Below, in pieces: positions 12,001 through 18,000 of a DNA stretch of 64,000 nt. The stretch comes from Escherichia coli (GTDB lineage Bacteria > Pseudomonadota > Gammaproteobacteria > Enterobacterales > Enterobacteriaceae), in assembly GCF_003790525.1 (NCBI RefSeq), contig NZ_CP033635.1, one strand, 5' to 3'. Positions within the stretch are counted from its first letter, which is position 1. Each line of letters opens with the position of its first letter. Made by a program: the position numbers.

Positions 12001-15000
12001 GCTAATATTAATTCCCTTTATCGGCGGCTTCCTGTGCTGGCAGACCGAACGCTTTGGCGTCAAGGTGCCGCGCTGGATCGCGCTGATCACCATGGGATTG
12101 ACGCTGGCGCTGTCGCTGCAACTGTGGTTGCAGGGCGGTTATTCACTGACGCAATCCGCCGGAATTCCGCAGTGGCAGTCTGAATTCGACATGCCGTGGA
12201 TCCCGCGTTTTGGTATCTCTATCCATCTCGCCATTGACGGGCTATCGCTGCTGATGGTCGTGCTGACCGGTCTGCTCGGTGTGCTGGCGGTACTCTGTTC
12301 GTGGAAAGAGATCGAAAAATACCAGGGCTTCTTCCACCTCAACCTGATGTGGATCCTGGGCGGCGTTATCGGCGTGTTCCTTGCCATCGACATGTTCCTG
12401 TTCTTCTTCTTCTGGGAAATGATGCTGGTGCCGATGTACTTCCTGATCGCACTGTGGGGGCATAAAGCCTCTGACGGTAAAACGCGTATCACGGCGGCAA
12501 CCAAGTTCTTCATTTACACCCAGGCGAGTGGTCTGGTGATGTTGATCGCCATCCTGGCGCTGGTATTTGTTCACTACAATGCGACTGGCGTCTGGACCTT
12601 CAACTATGAAGAGCTGTTGAATACGCCAATGTCCAGTGGTGTGGAATATCTGTTGATGCTGGGCTTCTTCATCGCGTTTGCGGTGAAAATGCCGGTGGTA
12701 CCGCTGCATGGCTGGCTGCCGGATGCGCACTCACAGGCTCCGACCGCCGGTTCCGTGGACCTCGCGGGGATCTTGCTGAAAACCGCTGCTTACGGTCTGC
12801 TGCGTTTCTCCCTGCCGCTGTTCCCGAACGCGTCGGCAGAGTTCGCGCCAATCGCTATGTGGCTGGGTGTTATCGGCATCTTCTACGGTGCGTGGATGGC
12901 CTTCGCCCAGACCGATATCAAACGTCTGATCGCCTACACCTCGGTTTCCCACATGGGCTTCGTGCTGATTGCTATCTATACCGGCAGCCAGTTGGCCTAC
13001 CAGGGCGCGGTAATCCAGATGATTGCGCACGGCTTGTCAGCGGCGGGTCTGTTTATTCTTTGTGGTCAGCTTTATGAACGTATCCATACCCGCGACATGC
13101 GCATGATGGGCGGTCTGTGGAGCAAGATGAAATGGCTGCCAGCACTGTCGCTGTTCTTTGCGGTGGCAACGCTTGGGATGCCAGGCACCGGTAACTTCGT
13201 CGGCGAATTTATGATTCTGTTCGGCAGCTTCCAGGTTGTCCCGGTGATTACCGTTATCTCTACCTTTGGGCTGGTCTTTGCATCTGTTTATTCGCTGGCG
13301 ATGTTGCATCGCGCTTACTTCGGTAAAGCGAAAAGCCAGATTGCCAGCCAGGAACTGCCAGGGATGTCGCTGCGTGAGCTGTTTATGATCCTGTTGCTGG
13401 TGGTGCTGCTGGTACTGCTGGGCTTCTATCCGCAGCCGATTCTGGATACCTCGCACTCCGCGATTGGCAATATCCAGCAGTGGTTTGTTAATTCCGTTAC
13501 TACTACAAGGCCGTAAATCGCCATGACAATAACTCCACAAAACCTGATCGCACTGCTACCGTTGCTGATCGTCGGCTTGACGGTGGTGGTTGTGATGCTC
13601 TCCATTGCGTGGCGACGCAATCATTTCCTCAACGCTACGCTCTCGGTTATTGGGCTTAACGCGGCGCTGGTTTCGCTCTGGTTTGTCGGCCAGGCGGGCG
13701 CTATGGACGTTACGCCGCTGATGCGCGTTGATGGTTTCGCCATGCTTTACACCGGGCTGGTATTGTTGGCGAGCCTCGCCACCTGTACTTTCGCCTACCC
13801 GTGGCTTGAAGGCTATAACGACAACAAGGACGAGTTCTACCTGTTGGTGTTAATTGCCGCCCTGGGCGGGATCCTGCTGGCGAATGCCAACCATCTGGCG
13901 TCTCTGTTCCTCGGTATCGAACTGATCTCTTTGCCGCTGTTTGGCCTGGTCGGTTACGCTTTCCGCCAGAAACGTTCGCTGGAAGCCAGTATCAAATACA
14001 CCATTCTCTCTGCCGCAGCGTCTTCTTTCCTGCTGTTCGGTATGGCGCTGGTGTATGCGCAGTCTGGCGACCTGTCGTTTGTCGCGCTGGGTAAAAACCT
14101 CGGCGACGGTATGCTCAACGAGCCGCTGTTGCTGGCAGGTTTCGGCCTGATGATTGTTGGCCTCGGCTTCAAACTCTCTCTGGTGCCGTTCCACCTGTGG
14201 ACGCCAGACGTATACCAGGGCGCGCCTGCGCCGGTTTCCACTTTCCTGGCGACGGCGAGCAAAATCGCTATCTTCGGTGTGGTGATGCGTCTGTTCCTCT
14301 ACGCACCGGTGGGTGACAGCGAAGCGATTCGGGTGGTGCTGGCGATTATCGCCTTTGCCTCCATCATCTTCGGTAACCTGATGGCGCTGAGCCAGACCAA
14401 TATCAAACGTCTGCTCGGTTACTCATCTATCTCTCACCTCGGCTATCTGCTGGTGGCGCTGATTGCGCTGCAAACGGGCGAGATGTCGATGGAAGCGGTA
14501 GGGGTTTACCTGGCCGGTTATCTGTTCAGCAGCCTCGGCGCGTTCGGCGTGGTCAGCCTGATGTCCAGCCCGTATCGTGGCCCGGATGCTGATTCCCTGT
14601 TCTCTTACCGCGGTCTGTTCTGGCATCGTCCGATCCTCGCGGCAGTGATGACGGTGATGATGCTGTCTCTGGCCGGTATTCCGATGACGCTGGGCTTTAT
14701 CGGTAAGTTCTACGTGCTGGCAGTCGGTGTTCAGGCACACTTGTGGTGGCTGGTGGGCGCCGTGGTTGTCGGTTCGGCAATCGGCCTCTACTACTACCTG
14801 CGCGTGGCGGTGAGCCTGTATCTTCACGCCCCGGAACAACCGGGTCGTGATGCGCCGTCAAACTGGCAGTACAGCGCGGGCGGTATCGTGGTGCTGATCT
14901 CTGCACTGTTGGTACTGGTGCTGGGTGTATGGCCACAACCGCTGATTAGCATTGTGCGGTTAGCCATGCCGCTGATGTAAGCTGTCAGTTCGTAATTCAG

Positions 15001-18000
15001 AAAGCCGCCGACATGTTCGGCGGTTTTTTTTTGGTGCCCTGACCCCATCACCCAACAATAACCGTCAGCGCATGATTCCCCTGTCGCAGTATACGCCGAT
15101 AAGCGCTAATTAATTTTTCCATATCAAGCATGATGGATGCAAAGAGTTGCCCCTCTAACTCTTCTGAAAAGGTTACTCCCGGATAAATCTCCATTTCATT
15201 GAGTCGCTGAATGGAAAACTGTTTACGCAGCACATTTCGGTCAAGAGCTTCCAGGCGGTCGATTGTCGCAGCTAACTCCTGATTCCAGGTCAACCCCAGG
15301 AAACCATCTATGCCATCTTCGAGGCTGTGTTCACCAAGCACGGCACGACTCAACGGATCATTCTTCGCTGGATCGAACGCAGAGGTGCCTGTCAGGCCAA
15401 AATGTAAAAAATCCCAGCGTTTATCAATATCCAGTCGGCGTAATCCTGAAAGCGTGTCATGAATATTGTCCATTAAAGGTTTTTCAGCTGACTCAAGCAG
15501 TTGGTTAATCTTTTCTGAGTCGATTTCCGCAAAATAGCCAATCATTCCCATTTATTTTTCCTCCGTTGAATTTCATGTTTCGCATCTTAAAACAGATGAG
15601 GGAAAATAAAATGCGCATGTTGCTTTTTCTGGACCCGCCTCGAGAAAATTTTATTGTTTACTGTTGTATAACAAGGTGATAACGCCATCCACGACCTGGG
15701 CCATTTTCTGATAATTCAATCTGTCTGCGGTATCACCGGGCAAGTGGTATTGTTTATTACGATAAAAAGCGGTGTCGGTAATCATTACGGCGGGAATATC
15801 GTGTTGCCAATAATTAAGGTGGTCAGAGAAATCAATGCCGGGAATAAACCCTGGGGCATTCATAGAATAAACAGATAAATCCTGAGATGACAACAATGCC
15901 GCTTTTAGCTGACGAACGGCGTTGATATCCTGCATTCTGCCGACCACGGCAATAAAGTCTCCCCGATCGGGATAAAGCCAGGACATTGCCGGGTAAGGGT
16001 AATCCTGACTACCAGGCGCAGAGTCGTAATAGCCAATCATCTCCAGCGCTATCATTAATCTAACTGGACGCTCAAGCGAAGCTGCATGTACCGCGCTCCC
16101 CATTTCATCGCTACGAAAGAAGGGCGGTTCTTCCGACGCATAGGCGACCAGCTGCACGCCAGTTTTCGGTGCTTGCTGCTGTAACAAACGTGCCAGTTCG
16201 AGTAATCCTGCCACGCCACTGGCGTTATCATCCGCGCCCGGCGTATAGGTCAATTGATCGTTTTCATAACTGCTGGCAGAGTCATAGTGCGCACCAATAA
16301 TAATCAGCGGTCCATCGGCAGGACCATAATCAGCAACAATGTTTTTGTAGGGGCCACCCGTAATGGGGGCGTCCTGCGAGGTAACTCTGGCACCGCTACT
16401 GACAAAGACCTCTTTTATATACTCTGCGGACCTTTTCAGATTATCAATATTGTCGGCACTACGGGGATGCACAGTTTGTGTAAGATAACGAACTGTTTTT
16501 TCTAATTGCTCAGGACTTGCGTGTCGGGGCGTTGGCGGTAATGCATTGACCCAGGGTTGGTAAAAAATAATCAGAGGGAGTGAAAACAGAATTAATATAA
16601 TAAAAGCAAAGTTTATTTTTTTTCATATGCAAATTATTAATGGGTTGCGTTATTGAATCATTATTTGTTATAGGTTTCGATATTGTATTTTATCAAGATC
16701 AGCAGGATGATACAAAGAGTGTATTTTATGTCTGGTGCCTGAGTTTATTTAAAAGGATTTTATATGCGAAATAAAAATATAATCATGTTGCTTATGAGTA
16801 GTTTGATTTTGTCAGGATGTGGGCCGGAATCTGAGAATAAGGAAAGTCTGCAACAACAACCCAGTACTCCCACGGACCAGCAAGTGCTTGCCGCGCAACA
16901 TGCTGCAATAAAAGAGGCCGAGCAAAGATCCGTCGCCGCTAAAGCCACTGCAGACGCGAAAGCAAAAGCCTTAGCCCAGCAAGAAGCGCAACAATATTCA
17001 GACAAACAGGCTTTGCAGGGGCGCTTACAGGCGGCTCCAAAATATCAACATGCAGCCAGAGAAAAAGCAGCCTCCCAAATCGCAAATCCAGGAACCGCTC
17101 GCTATCAGCAGTTCGATGATAATCCGGTTAAGCAGGTAGCGCAAAACCCGTTGGCGACATTTAGCCTTGACGTCGACACCGGCAGTTATGCGAATGTACG
17201 CCGTTTTCTCAATCATGGGCAGTTGCCTCCGCCAGATGCAGTGCGGGTGGAGGAGATGGTGAATTATTTTCCGTCAGACTGGGTTATTAATGATAAAAGT
17301 AATAATAAAGAACCTGTTCCCGCCAGTAAGCCAATACCTTTCGCTATGCGCTACGAACTGGCACCTGCGCCGTGGAATGAACAGCGAACATTGCTGAAAG
17401 TTGATATCCTGGCGAAAGATCGCAAAAGTGAAGAGTTACCAGCTTCTAATCTGGTCTTTCTTATCGACACTTCTGGTTCAATGATTTCTGATGAACGTTT
17501 GCCACTTATCCAGTCTTCGTTGAAATTATTGGTCAAAGAACTTCGTGAGCAGGATAACATTGCCATCGTGACCTATGCTGGCGACTCCCGTATTGCGTTG
17601 CCTTCTATCTCCGGGAGTCACAAGGCGGAAATTAATGCCGCAATTGATTCGCTGGATGCCGATGGCAGTACCAATGGCGGTGCCGGGCTGGAACTGGCTT
17701 ATCAGCAGGCGGCGAAGGGGTTTATTAAGGGTGGCATCAATCGCATTTTATTGGCCACTGATGGTGATTTTAACGTCGGCATTGACGATCCTAAATCGAT
17801 TGAATCAATGGTCAAAAAACAGCGGGAGTCCGGTGTTTCTCTGTCCACGTTTGGCGTGGGGGATAGCAATTACAACGAGGCAATGATGGTGCGAATCGCC
17901 GATGTTGGCAACGGTAACTACAGCTACATTGATACCCTCGCTGAAGCACAGAAAGTATTGAACAGTGAAATGCGGCAGACGTTGATTAGCGTAGCAAAAG

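What the first reader, a model, noticed from the sequence alone, without database searches (positions are those of the whole stretch)
14981..15047. nuoN to yfbM junction is only 67 bp; the yfbN-yfbO-yfbP block known from K-12 is absent
In this window the nuo terminator is followed directly by the yfbM stop. In the K-12 map, as I recall it, three genes (yfbN, yfbO, yfbP) lie between yfbM and nuoN. The junction therefore marks a variable insertion point next to a strong terminator, and this strain represents the empty-site state.
Basis: inference. Interest (0 to 1): 0.3.

Follow-up and report, generated by a model that had tools for sequence, protein, structure and literature searches.

The report
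Unoccupied nuoN–yfbM junction, K-12 island absent
The 67-bp gap between nuoN and yfbM is the ordinary, probably ancestral arrangement found in about three quarters of complete E. coli genomes and in sister species. K-12 is the exception because it carries a small low-GC insert (yfbN-yfbO-yfbP) there, so this is a routine strain-to-strain difference.

Summary
nuoN ends at 14980, yfbM (minus strand) ends at 15048, and the 67 bp between them hold a strong intrinsic terminator: a hairpin at 14999-15029 and nine Ts at 24-32 of the 15000s.

K-12 MG1655 has yfbP, yfbO and yfbN at this point. Homology to K-12 stops at 15028, inside the T-run, and resumes at 15047. Eighteen window bases therefore stand where K-12 has 2,561 bp of 39.8% GC.

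Among 5,426 complete E. coli genomes:
- about 4,207 (77.5%) have the contiguous junction;
- 946 (17.4%) carry the K-12 island;
- 14 carry a different two-gene island;
- 140 have an IS200/IS605 element in the T-run.

E. coli B has an IS3-family element in the hairpin loop. E. albertii (63-bp junction) and E. whittamii also have the empty form, so empty is ancestral.

The K-12 island has no target-site duplication, terminal repeats, integrase or tRNA. It is a decayed composite related to the rarer island.

The window and an island-bearing strain are about 100% identical on the yfbM side but 89-97% on the nuoN side. This points to exchange by homologous recombination in the flanks.

The finding is ordinary and of low interest.

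The parts
13523..14980 (+). nuoN, the last gene of the nuo operon; stop codon TAA at 14978-14980
   Evidence: ORF list. RefSeq annotation of the 100%-identical record NZ_CP020509.1. About 99% identical to K-12 except for the last ~280 bp, which are about 95%.
14981..15047 (.). 67-bp convergent-gene spacer: the unoccupied allele of the nuoN-yfbM polymorphic site
   Evidence: Sequence. Contiguous in about 4,207 of 5,426 complete E. coli genomes. Homologous 63-66-bp spacers occur in E. albertii and E. whittamii.
14999..15029 (+). Terminator hairpin of the nuo operon. The G+C core arms are 15005-15011 and 15017-15023, the loop CATGT is 15012-15016, and A/T pairs extend the stem.
   Evidence: Folding: -18.6 kcal/mol, z -5.1, no shuffle out of 200 as stable. 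The hairpin is kept in every allele examined (K-12, WL297, E. albertii). The simple consensus scan did not flag it.
15024..15032 (+). T9 tract, the U-tail of the terminator. It is the left breakpoint of the K-12 island (after 15028) and the insertion point of IS200/IS605 in other strains.
   Evidence: Alignment to K-12 ends at 15028. IS200/IS605 junctions GGCGGTTTTTTTT|GTGCACAG in W46 and TTTTTTATT|GTGCACAG in E. albertii.
15029..15046 (.). 18 bp (TTTTGGTGCCCTGACCCC) present only in the empty allele; K-12 has 2,561 bp (yfbP, yfbO, yfbN and a pseudogene remnant) in its place
   Evidence: BLAST breakpoints and printed junctions. Homologous filler GG(T/C)GC(C/T)CTGA(C/T)(A/C)CC in 042, O157, JJ1887, the E. 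coli representative genome and E. whittamii.
15048..15551 (-). yfbM (DUF1877 family, 167 aa). Its stop codon (TCA on the + strand, 15048-15050) is the fixed right boundary of every allele.
   Evidence: ORF. Pfam PF08974, E 6e-34. All alleles resume at ...|ATCACCCAACAAT. 99.8% nucleotide identity and identical protein compared with yfbM of the island-bearing strain WL297.

Best explanation
The 67 bp are the intact, ancestral junction of two convergent genes. They consist of the nuoN stop, an intrinsic terminator (13-bp hairpin plus T9) that ends the ~15-kb nuo transcript and shields yfbM from antisense read-through, and 15 further bases up to the yfbM stop. The short stretch between the T-tract and the yfbM stop carries no function. 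Insertions there are tolerated and have happened repeatedly in Escherichia. K-12 and about 17% of complete E. coli genomes carry a low-GC 2.56-kb insert (yfbP, yfbO, yfbN and a truncated, frameshifted remnant of a 191-aa gene) that replaced 17-18 bp of spacer. That insert descends from, or shares a source with, a 1.5-kb two-gene island (a yfbN-like gene plus the intact 191-aa gene) seen in 14 E. coli genomes and in a cryptic-clade Escherichia. The islands have no mobility machinery of their own. I infer that they arose once by illegitimate recombination and have since been gained or lost by homologous recombination in the nuoN and yfbM-yfbL flanks. The window strain (E. coli 165) has the never-occupied allele or one restored by recombination. 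Shown: the anatomy, the breakpoints, the frequencies, the outgroup state and the haplotype breakpoint. Inferred: terminator function in vivo, and homologous recombination as the route of exchange.
For: Anatomy and terminator. K-12 map and breakpoints (15028 | 15047; 2,561 bp at 39.8% GC against 48.4% for the flanks). Frequencies: contiguous 150-bp junction in 4,207 of 5,426 genomes; K-12 island at >=80% coverage in 946 genomes, nearly all >=99% identical; alternative island in 14; IS200/IS605 junction in 140; ISEcB1 in the hairpin loop with a CATG duplication in E. coli B. Outgroups are empty: E. whittamii, and E. albertii in 7 of 8 places with a 63-bp spacer and the same hairpin, the eighth carrying IS200/IS605. 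The empty-site filler is homologous across E. coli phylogroups and E. whittamii. The island is composite and decayed: K-12 yfbN plus ~270 bp downstream align at 78% to the WL297 island, and tblastn recovers residues ~103-191 of the 191-aa protein in three frames with in-frame stops. No mobility signs: no integrase or transposase domain, no terminal direct or inverted repeats, no tRNA, no phage match and no meaningful plasmid match. Recombination: the window and WL297 are about 100% identical from 15047 to ~16350 but 89-97% on the nuoN side, so one right-flank haplotype occurs with and without an island. Divergence from K-12 jumps from ~1% to 5-8% starting ~280 bp before the junction.
Against: An island related to K-12's is present in a cryptic-clade Escherichia (L011), so the occupied state is old and was not polarised on a full phylogeny. 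Only two outgroup species were informative; the peptide scan recovered no E. fergusonii, E. marmotae or Salmonella loci. The homologous-recombination argument rests on one strain pair plus a divergence profile, and no formal recombination test was run. The genome counts come from coverage thresholds and are neither exact nor mutually exclusive (4,309 by the 1,067-bp query against 4,207 by the 150-bp query). Terminator activity is predicted, not measured, and the simple consensus scan missed it.
Confidence: 0.82

Rival explanations
1. The occupied state is ancestral, and the 67-bp junction arose by deletion of a yfbN-type island in the ancestor of most E. coli.
For: yfbN-type islands exist in a cryptic-clade Escherichia as well as in E. 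coli and differ by 20-30%, so they are old. K-12's copy shows ongoing decay and a deletion that runs exactly to the yfbM stop.
Against: E. albertii and E. whittamii have the empty form with the same hairpin. The 14-bp filler after the T-tract is homologous in all E. coli empties and in E. whittamii, which independent deletions would not reproduce. The islands have a much lower GC than nuoN. The K-12 island is >=99% identical across its carriers, consistent with a recent spread.
Confidence: 0.06
2. yfbN-yfbO-yfbP is a site-specific mobile element (an integrase- or transposase-driven islet) that targets the nuo terminator, and the window shows its attB.
For: Other true mobile elements do use this exact spot. 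IS200/IS605 sits in the T-run in 140 E. coli genomes and in E. albertii, and an IS3-family element sits in the loop in E. coli B.
Against: No target-site duplication at the K-12 junctions (GGTTTTT|CTGAAAAAG ... CAAGCTAT|ATCACCC). 17-18 bp of spacer are missing rather than duplicated. There are no terminal inverted or direct repeats, no integrase or transposase domain in any island protein and no space for a remnant, and no tRNA. The island occurs in one chromosomal place per genome (highest 2) and has no phage copies.
Confidence: 0.05
3. The short junction is an assembly or collapse artefact of this window.
For: None.
Against: It is identical to a finished genome, and the same junction is present in about 4,200 complete assemblies and in two other species.
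Confidence: 0.01

Closest known systems
Strain-specific 'K-islands' of E. coli K-12 (K-12 against O157:H7 genome comparisons, Perna et al. 2001 and Hayashi et al. 2001; cited from memory, not re-read here)
   Same: A small, low-GC block of poorly characterised genes is present in K-12 and absent from most other E. coli. It lies between conserved backbone genes and has no mobility genes.
   Different: I found no paper that names this island. The only paper holding both nuoN and yfbM is a genome announcement. New details here are the exact breakpoints, the frequencies, the outgroup state, the link to a second island type and the unannotated pseudogene remnant.
Chromosomal insertion/recombination hotspots between core genes (regions of genome plasticity exchanged by flanking homologous recombination; general concept from E. 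coli pan-genome studies, from memory)
   Same: Several alternative contents sit at one core-gene interval. Flank divergence is raised, and a haplotype breakpoint falls at the junction.
   Different: The site is very small (0-2.6 kb, at most 3 genes) and of low diversity, with two related island types plus IS elements. No recognised defence genes are present (PADLOC: none).
IS200/IS605-family and IS3-family insertions at or in terminator hairpins
   Same: In other strains the same terminator carries IS200/IS605 in the T-run (no duplication) or ISEcB1 in the loop (CATG duplication).
   Different: The window has neither element, and the K-12 island lacks all IS hallmarks.
tRNA/tmRNA-linked integrative genomic islands
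   Same: Presence/absence polymorphism with atypical GC.
   Different: No tRNA, integrase or att repeats.

Membership tests
Intrinsic (rho-independent) terminator | G+C-rich hairpin immediately followed by a U/T tract downstream of the last gene | tested here: met
   7-bp GC core extended to 13 bp, 5-nt loop, T9 tail, 18 nt after the nuoN stop. -18.6 kcal/mol, z -5.1. Conserved in K-12, WL297 and E. albertii.
Intrinsic (rho-independent) terminator | Transcript 3' ends map to the U-tract in vivo | not testable with these tools
   Needs Term-seq or 3'-RACE.
Empty site of a presence/absence (island) polymorphism | Same flanks contiguous in some genomes and interrupted in others at defined breakpoints | tested here: met
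   Breakpoints 15028 | 15047 against K-12. About 4,207 genomes contiguous, 946 with the K-12 island, 14 with the alternative island.
Empty site of a presence/absence (island) polymorphism | Empty state present in outgroups (ancestral) | tested here: met
   E. whittamii and E. albertii have 63-66-bp junctions with the same hairpin. One cryptic-clade genome carries the alternative island.
Integrase-mediated genomic island / prophage attB | Integrase gene or remnant in the occupied allele | tested here: not met
   Pfam and NCBIfam scans of YfbN, YfbO, YfbP and the 191-aa protein give only weak UBA-like, TPR and SUKH-like matches. The non-coding parts are too short to hold a remnant, or are the 191-aa gene remnant.
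Integrase-mediated genomic island / prophage attB | Direct repeats (attL/attR) flanking the insert, usually at a tRNA/tmRNA gene | tested here: not met
   No boundary repeats and no tRNA or tmRNA.
IS/transposon insertion (for the K-12 yfbNOP block) | Transposase, terminal inverted repeats and target-site duplication | tested here: not met
   None of the three is present. By contrast ISEcB1 in E. coli B shows TG...CA ends and a CATG duplication.
Anti-phage defence island / hotspot | Occupied alleles encode recognised defence-system proteins | tested here: not met
   PADLOC-DB gave no hit for any of the six proteins.
Island exchange by flanking homologous recombination | Same flank haplotype found with different site contents; identity breakpoint at the junction | tested here: met
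   The window and WL297 are ~100% identical over 15047-16350 but 89-97% on the nuoN side, and they share the identical YfbM protein WP_000525343.1. This is a single pair and no formal recombination test was run.

The most novel reading that the evidence does not exclude
The nuoN-yfbM spacer could be a miniature cassette-exchange hotspot. Fast-evolving, conflict-related genes would be swapped between Escherichia lineages by flanking homologous recombination. Candidate genes are yfbN-type proteins (70% amino-acid identity between the two island types), a SUKH/SMI1-like 191-aa putative immunity protein, and yfbO and yfbP. The neighbouring yfbM-yfbL-yfbK-elaD block, which is also unusually divergent, would be part of the same arms-race region. 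Hints only: a sub-threshold SMI1_KNR4 match (E 1.6e-3); yfbN listed among 'blockers' of a retron toxin; yfbO and yfbL reported as host factors for phage N4.
Probability: 0.15. Interest if true: 0.35.

Novelty: already known. Interest (0 to 1): 0.12.

Why it matters
It matters little on its own. It shows that the K-12 reference is atypical at this locus: yfbN, yfbO and yfbP are accessory genes found in about 17% of complete genomes and are not part of the E. coli backbone. It gives exact breakpoints, useful for pan-genome annotation or as a neutral integration site next to a strong terminator. It flags an unannotated pseudogene remnant in K-12 between yfbN and yfbM. It also gives a small, clean example of a terminator-adjacent spacer hit repeatedly by different insertions, where selection keeps only the hairpin and the neighbouring stop codon.

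Tried and rejected
- The consensus terminator scan did not report the nuo terminator. Explicit folding shows it clearly, so I disregarded the scan's negative result.
- Rfam (E-value mode) gave only sub-threshold hits that match the hairpin (best 16.7 bits against a gathering score of 97), so there is no known RNA here.
- PADLOC gave nothing. NCBIfam gave nothing meaningful. A PDB sequence search with the 191-aa protein gave nothing.
- The repeat search across the K-12 island found no terminal repeats. The 17-nt inverted pair I1 lies 47 bp and ~325 bp inside the two ends and is probably chance.
- A possible 6-bp direct repeat flanking the WL297-type island (ATGGTG at the left, ATTGTG near the right end) is too short and imperfect to count as a target-site duplication.
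- A possible CTGA microhomology at the K-12 left junction is likewise unconvincing.
- The phage collection gave no match to the K-12 island. In plasmids there was one 365-kb E. coli record with the whole block, which I suspect is chromosomal DNA, plus 150-bp matches at 70% identity in Providencia/Proteus plasmids. I pursued neither.
- The literature search found no paper that treats this junction.
- The genome contigs peptide scan returned only four loci, so E. fergusonii, E. marmotae and Salmonella could not be assessed.
- All-against-all BLASTP of the island proteins and YfbM showed no paralogy beyond the two YfbN types and the two 191-aa proteins.
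Full report
**1. Observation**

- nuoN is the ORF 13523..14980 (+), and yfbM is a 167-aa DUF1877 protein (Pfam E 6e-34) at 15048..15551 (-). The gap 14981..15047 is 67 bp.
- The gap reads GCTGTCAGTTCGTAATTC-AGAAAGCCGCCGA-CATGT-TCGGCGGTTTTTT-TTTGGTGCCCTGACCCCA.
- It folds into a 13-bp hairpin with a 7-bp G+C core and a T9 tail. The energy is -25.7 kcal/mol for the 67-mer (z -4.6) and -18.6 kcal/mol for the 40-mer (z -5.1); no shuffle out of 200 did as well.
- The simple consensus scan missed it. On the opposite strand the hairpin is followed only by CUUUCUG, so it is mainly the nuo terminator.
- The window is 100% identical to E. coli strain 165 (NZ_CP020509.1), where RefSeq annotates the same adjacency.

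**2. K-12 comparison**

- Alignment of the window to K-12 runs to 15028, five Ts into the T-tract, and resumes at 15047, one base before the yfbM stop.
- Eighteen window bases (TTTTGGTGCCCTGACCCC) stand where K-12 has 2,561 bp.
- The K-12 junctions are GGCGGTTTTT|CTGAAAAAG... and ...CAAGCTAT|ATCACCC. There is no duplication, and 17-18 bp of spacer are missing relative to the near-isogenic empty alleles of strain 042 and E. coli B (GGCGGTTTTTTTTGGCGCTCTGACACC|ATCACCC).
- The insert is 39.8% GC against 48.4% for the 7.4 kb of flanks and 55-61% for nuoN.
- It has no terminal direct or inverted repeats and no integrase or transposase domains. There is no tRNA nearby, no phage copy and no meaningful plasmid copy.

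**3. Population survey (5,426 complete E. coli genomes)**

| State of the junction | Genomes | Share |
|---|---|---|
| Contiguous (150-bp query across the junction, >=80% in one piece) | 4,207 | 77.5% |
| Contiguous or with an insert up to ~1 kb (1,067-bp query) | 4,309 | – |
| K-12 island at >=80% coverage, nearly all >=99% identical | 946 | 17.4% |
| Different 1.5-kb island (as in strain WL297) | 14 | 0.26% |
| IS200/IS605 element inside the T-tract | 140 | 2.6% |

- The junction of the IS200/IS605 element reads GGCGGTTTTTTTT|GTGCACAG...ATATTTATT|TTGGTGCCC.
- E. coli B has the IS3-like ISEcB1 in the hairpin loop, with TG...CA ends and a CATG duplication.
- A few genomes have IS66 in yfbM or IS1-associated deletions running from yfbO or yfbP to rbn.
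- The counts rest on coverage thresholds and are approximate.
- Empty-site strains include O157:H7, O111, O103, 042, UTI89, Nissle 1917 and ST131.

**4. Polarity**

- E. whittamii has a contiguous junction...GGCGGTTTTTTTATGGTGCTCTGATACC|ATCACCC.
- Seven of eight E. albertii places have a 63-bp junction with the same hairpin: ...GGCGGTTTTTTATTGCACGC(A/G)GCC|ATCACCC. These loci are 99.4-100% identical in nucleotides to the type-strain contig.
- The eighth E. albertii place has the same IS200/IS605 element at the same spot.
- The post-terminator filler is homologous among all E. coli empties and E. whittamii. Independent deletions would not recreate it.
- The empty form is therefore ancestral, and the window shows it.
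- One caveat: a cryptic-clade Escherichia (MOD1-EC7003) carries the WL297-type island, so occupied alleles are old too.

**5. What the islands are**

- The WL297-type island encodes a YfbN-like protein (70% amino-acid identity to K-12 YfbN) and a convergent 191-aa protein. The latter has a sub-threshold SMI1_KNR4/SUKH-1 match (E 1.6e-3).
- K-12's island aligns to it at 78% over yfbN plus about 270 bp downstream.
- tblastn recovers residues ~103-191 of the 191-aa protein from K-12 in three different frames with in-frame stops.
- K-12 therefore carries an unannotated, 5'-truncated pseudogene between yfbN and yfbM, together with an extra 1.57-kb yfbP-yfbO module on the nuoN side.
- The block is a decayed composite, not a single clean insertion.
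- YfbP gives weak TPR matches, YfbN weak UBA-like matches and YfbO none. PADLOC finds no defence protein.
- Literature offers only incidental mentions. yfbO and yfbL mutants resist phage N4 (10.1101/2025.09.29.679331). yfbN and yfbO appear among 'blockers' in a retron-toxin screen (10.1101/2020.06.22.160242).

**6. Mechanism**

- In every allele the right boundary is the base next to the yfbM stop. The left boundary is the terminator T-tract or, for WL297, just after a divergent but equally stable hairpin.
- This is what selection would leave if only the hairpin and the two reading frames matter.
- The window is about 99% identical to K-12 through nuo. From ~280 bp before the nuoN stop through yfbM, yfbL, yfbK and elaD (to ~20,000) it falls to 92-96%, and to 81-85% in the yfbK 5' part.
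- The window and WL297 are about 100% identical from 15047 to ~16350 and share the same YfbM protein, WP_000525343.1. On the nuoN side they are only 89-97% identical.
- One right-flank haplotype therefore occurs both with and without an island, with the identity breakpoint at the junction.
- Given that the islands lack any mobility machinery, I infer that island states are exchanged by homologous recombination in the flanks. The islands themselves would have arisen by illegitimate recombination. This step is an inference and was not formally tested.

**7. Comparison and verdict**

- This is a standard strain-specific islet polymorphism, a 'K-island' in the sense of the 2001 K-12/O157 comparisons (from memory), at a convergent-gene terminator.
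- It is not an integrase island, a transposon or a recognised defence hotspot; those membership tests fail.
- Novelty: already known in kind. Interest is low.

Noticed in passing
window 16590-16660 (yfbL start, - strand; ORF 15651..16472): The poly-A tract right after the yfbL ATG is A8 here (ATGAAAAAAAATAAAC) and A7 in K-12 (ATGAAAAAAATAATC), which puts the ATG out of frame. The longest ORF with a conventional start is 273 aa against 323 aa in K-12; RefSeq aa from an unusual start. yfbL is also frameshifted in O157 FRIK2533 and in E. coli B, so the gene seems to decay repeatedly.
   Followed up: partly
window 52936-54802 (ORFs 52668..53567 - and 53719..54909 +): About 1.87 kb absent from K-12, encoding a LysR-type regulator and an MFS-type transporter. 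K-12 has only the yfaH pseudogene at this position, so K-12 carries the deletion.
   Followed up: partly
window 14700-20000, especially 16801-17400: Identity to K-12 drops from ~99% (nuo) to 92-96% across yfbM-yfbL-yfbK-elaD and to 81-85% in the 5' part of yfbK. It returns to ~98% near rbn/elaA. This is a block of unusually divergent, lower-GC genes next to the junction.
   Followed up: partly
window 57104-64000: Only 88.7% identical to K-12 with 26 gaps, in the region matching K-12 2340386-2347276 (yfaL autotransporter, ypaB and nrdA). A further short stretch at 44544-44965 (rpnE/ypaA region) aligns poorly or repetitively.
   Followed up: no
L001 4439-4710 (K-12, between yfbM and yfbN): K-12 carries an unannotated pseudogene remnant here: residues ~103-191 of a 191-aa SUKH-like protein that is intact in strain WL297 and in Escherichia sp. 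MOD1-EC7003. The remnant has frameshifts and stops.
   Followed up: yes
L005 1577-2265 (E. coli W46) and L021 (E. albertii): The same IS200/IS605-family element (left end GTGCACAGAAAACCCCCAGCTAGGCTGGGGG) sits at the same point of the nuo terminator T-tract in 140 E. coli genomes and in E. albertii. This is either recurrent targeting of the hairpin/T-run or transfer of the occupied allele.
   Followed up: partly
L025 3526-5036 (E. coli B): The IS3-like ISEcB1 is inserted in the loop of the nuo terminator hairpin with a CATG duplication, which splits the terminator. E. coli B also lacks yfbK and has a frameshifted yfbL.
   Followed up: partly
L017-L024 (E. albertii) and L003 (WL297): E. albertii lacks elaD (rbn is followed directly by yfbK). 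WL297 and E. coli B lack yfbK. The whole elaD-yfbK-yfbL-yfbM block therefore varies in gene content between lineages.
   Followed up: no
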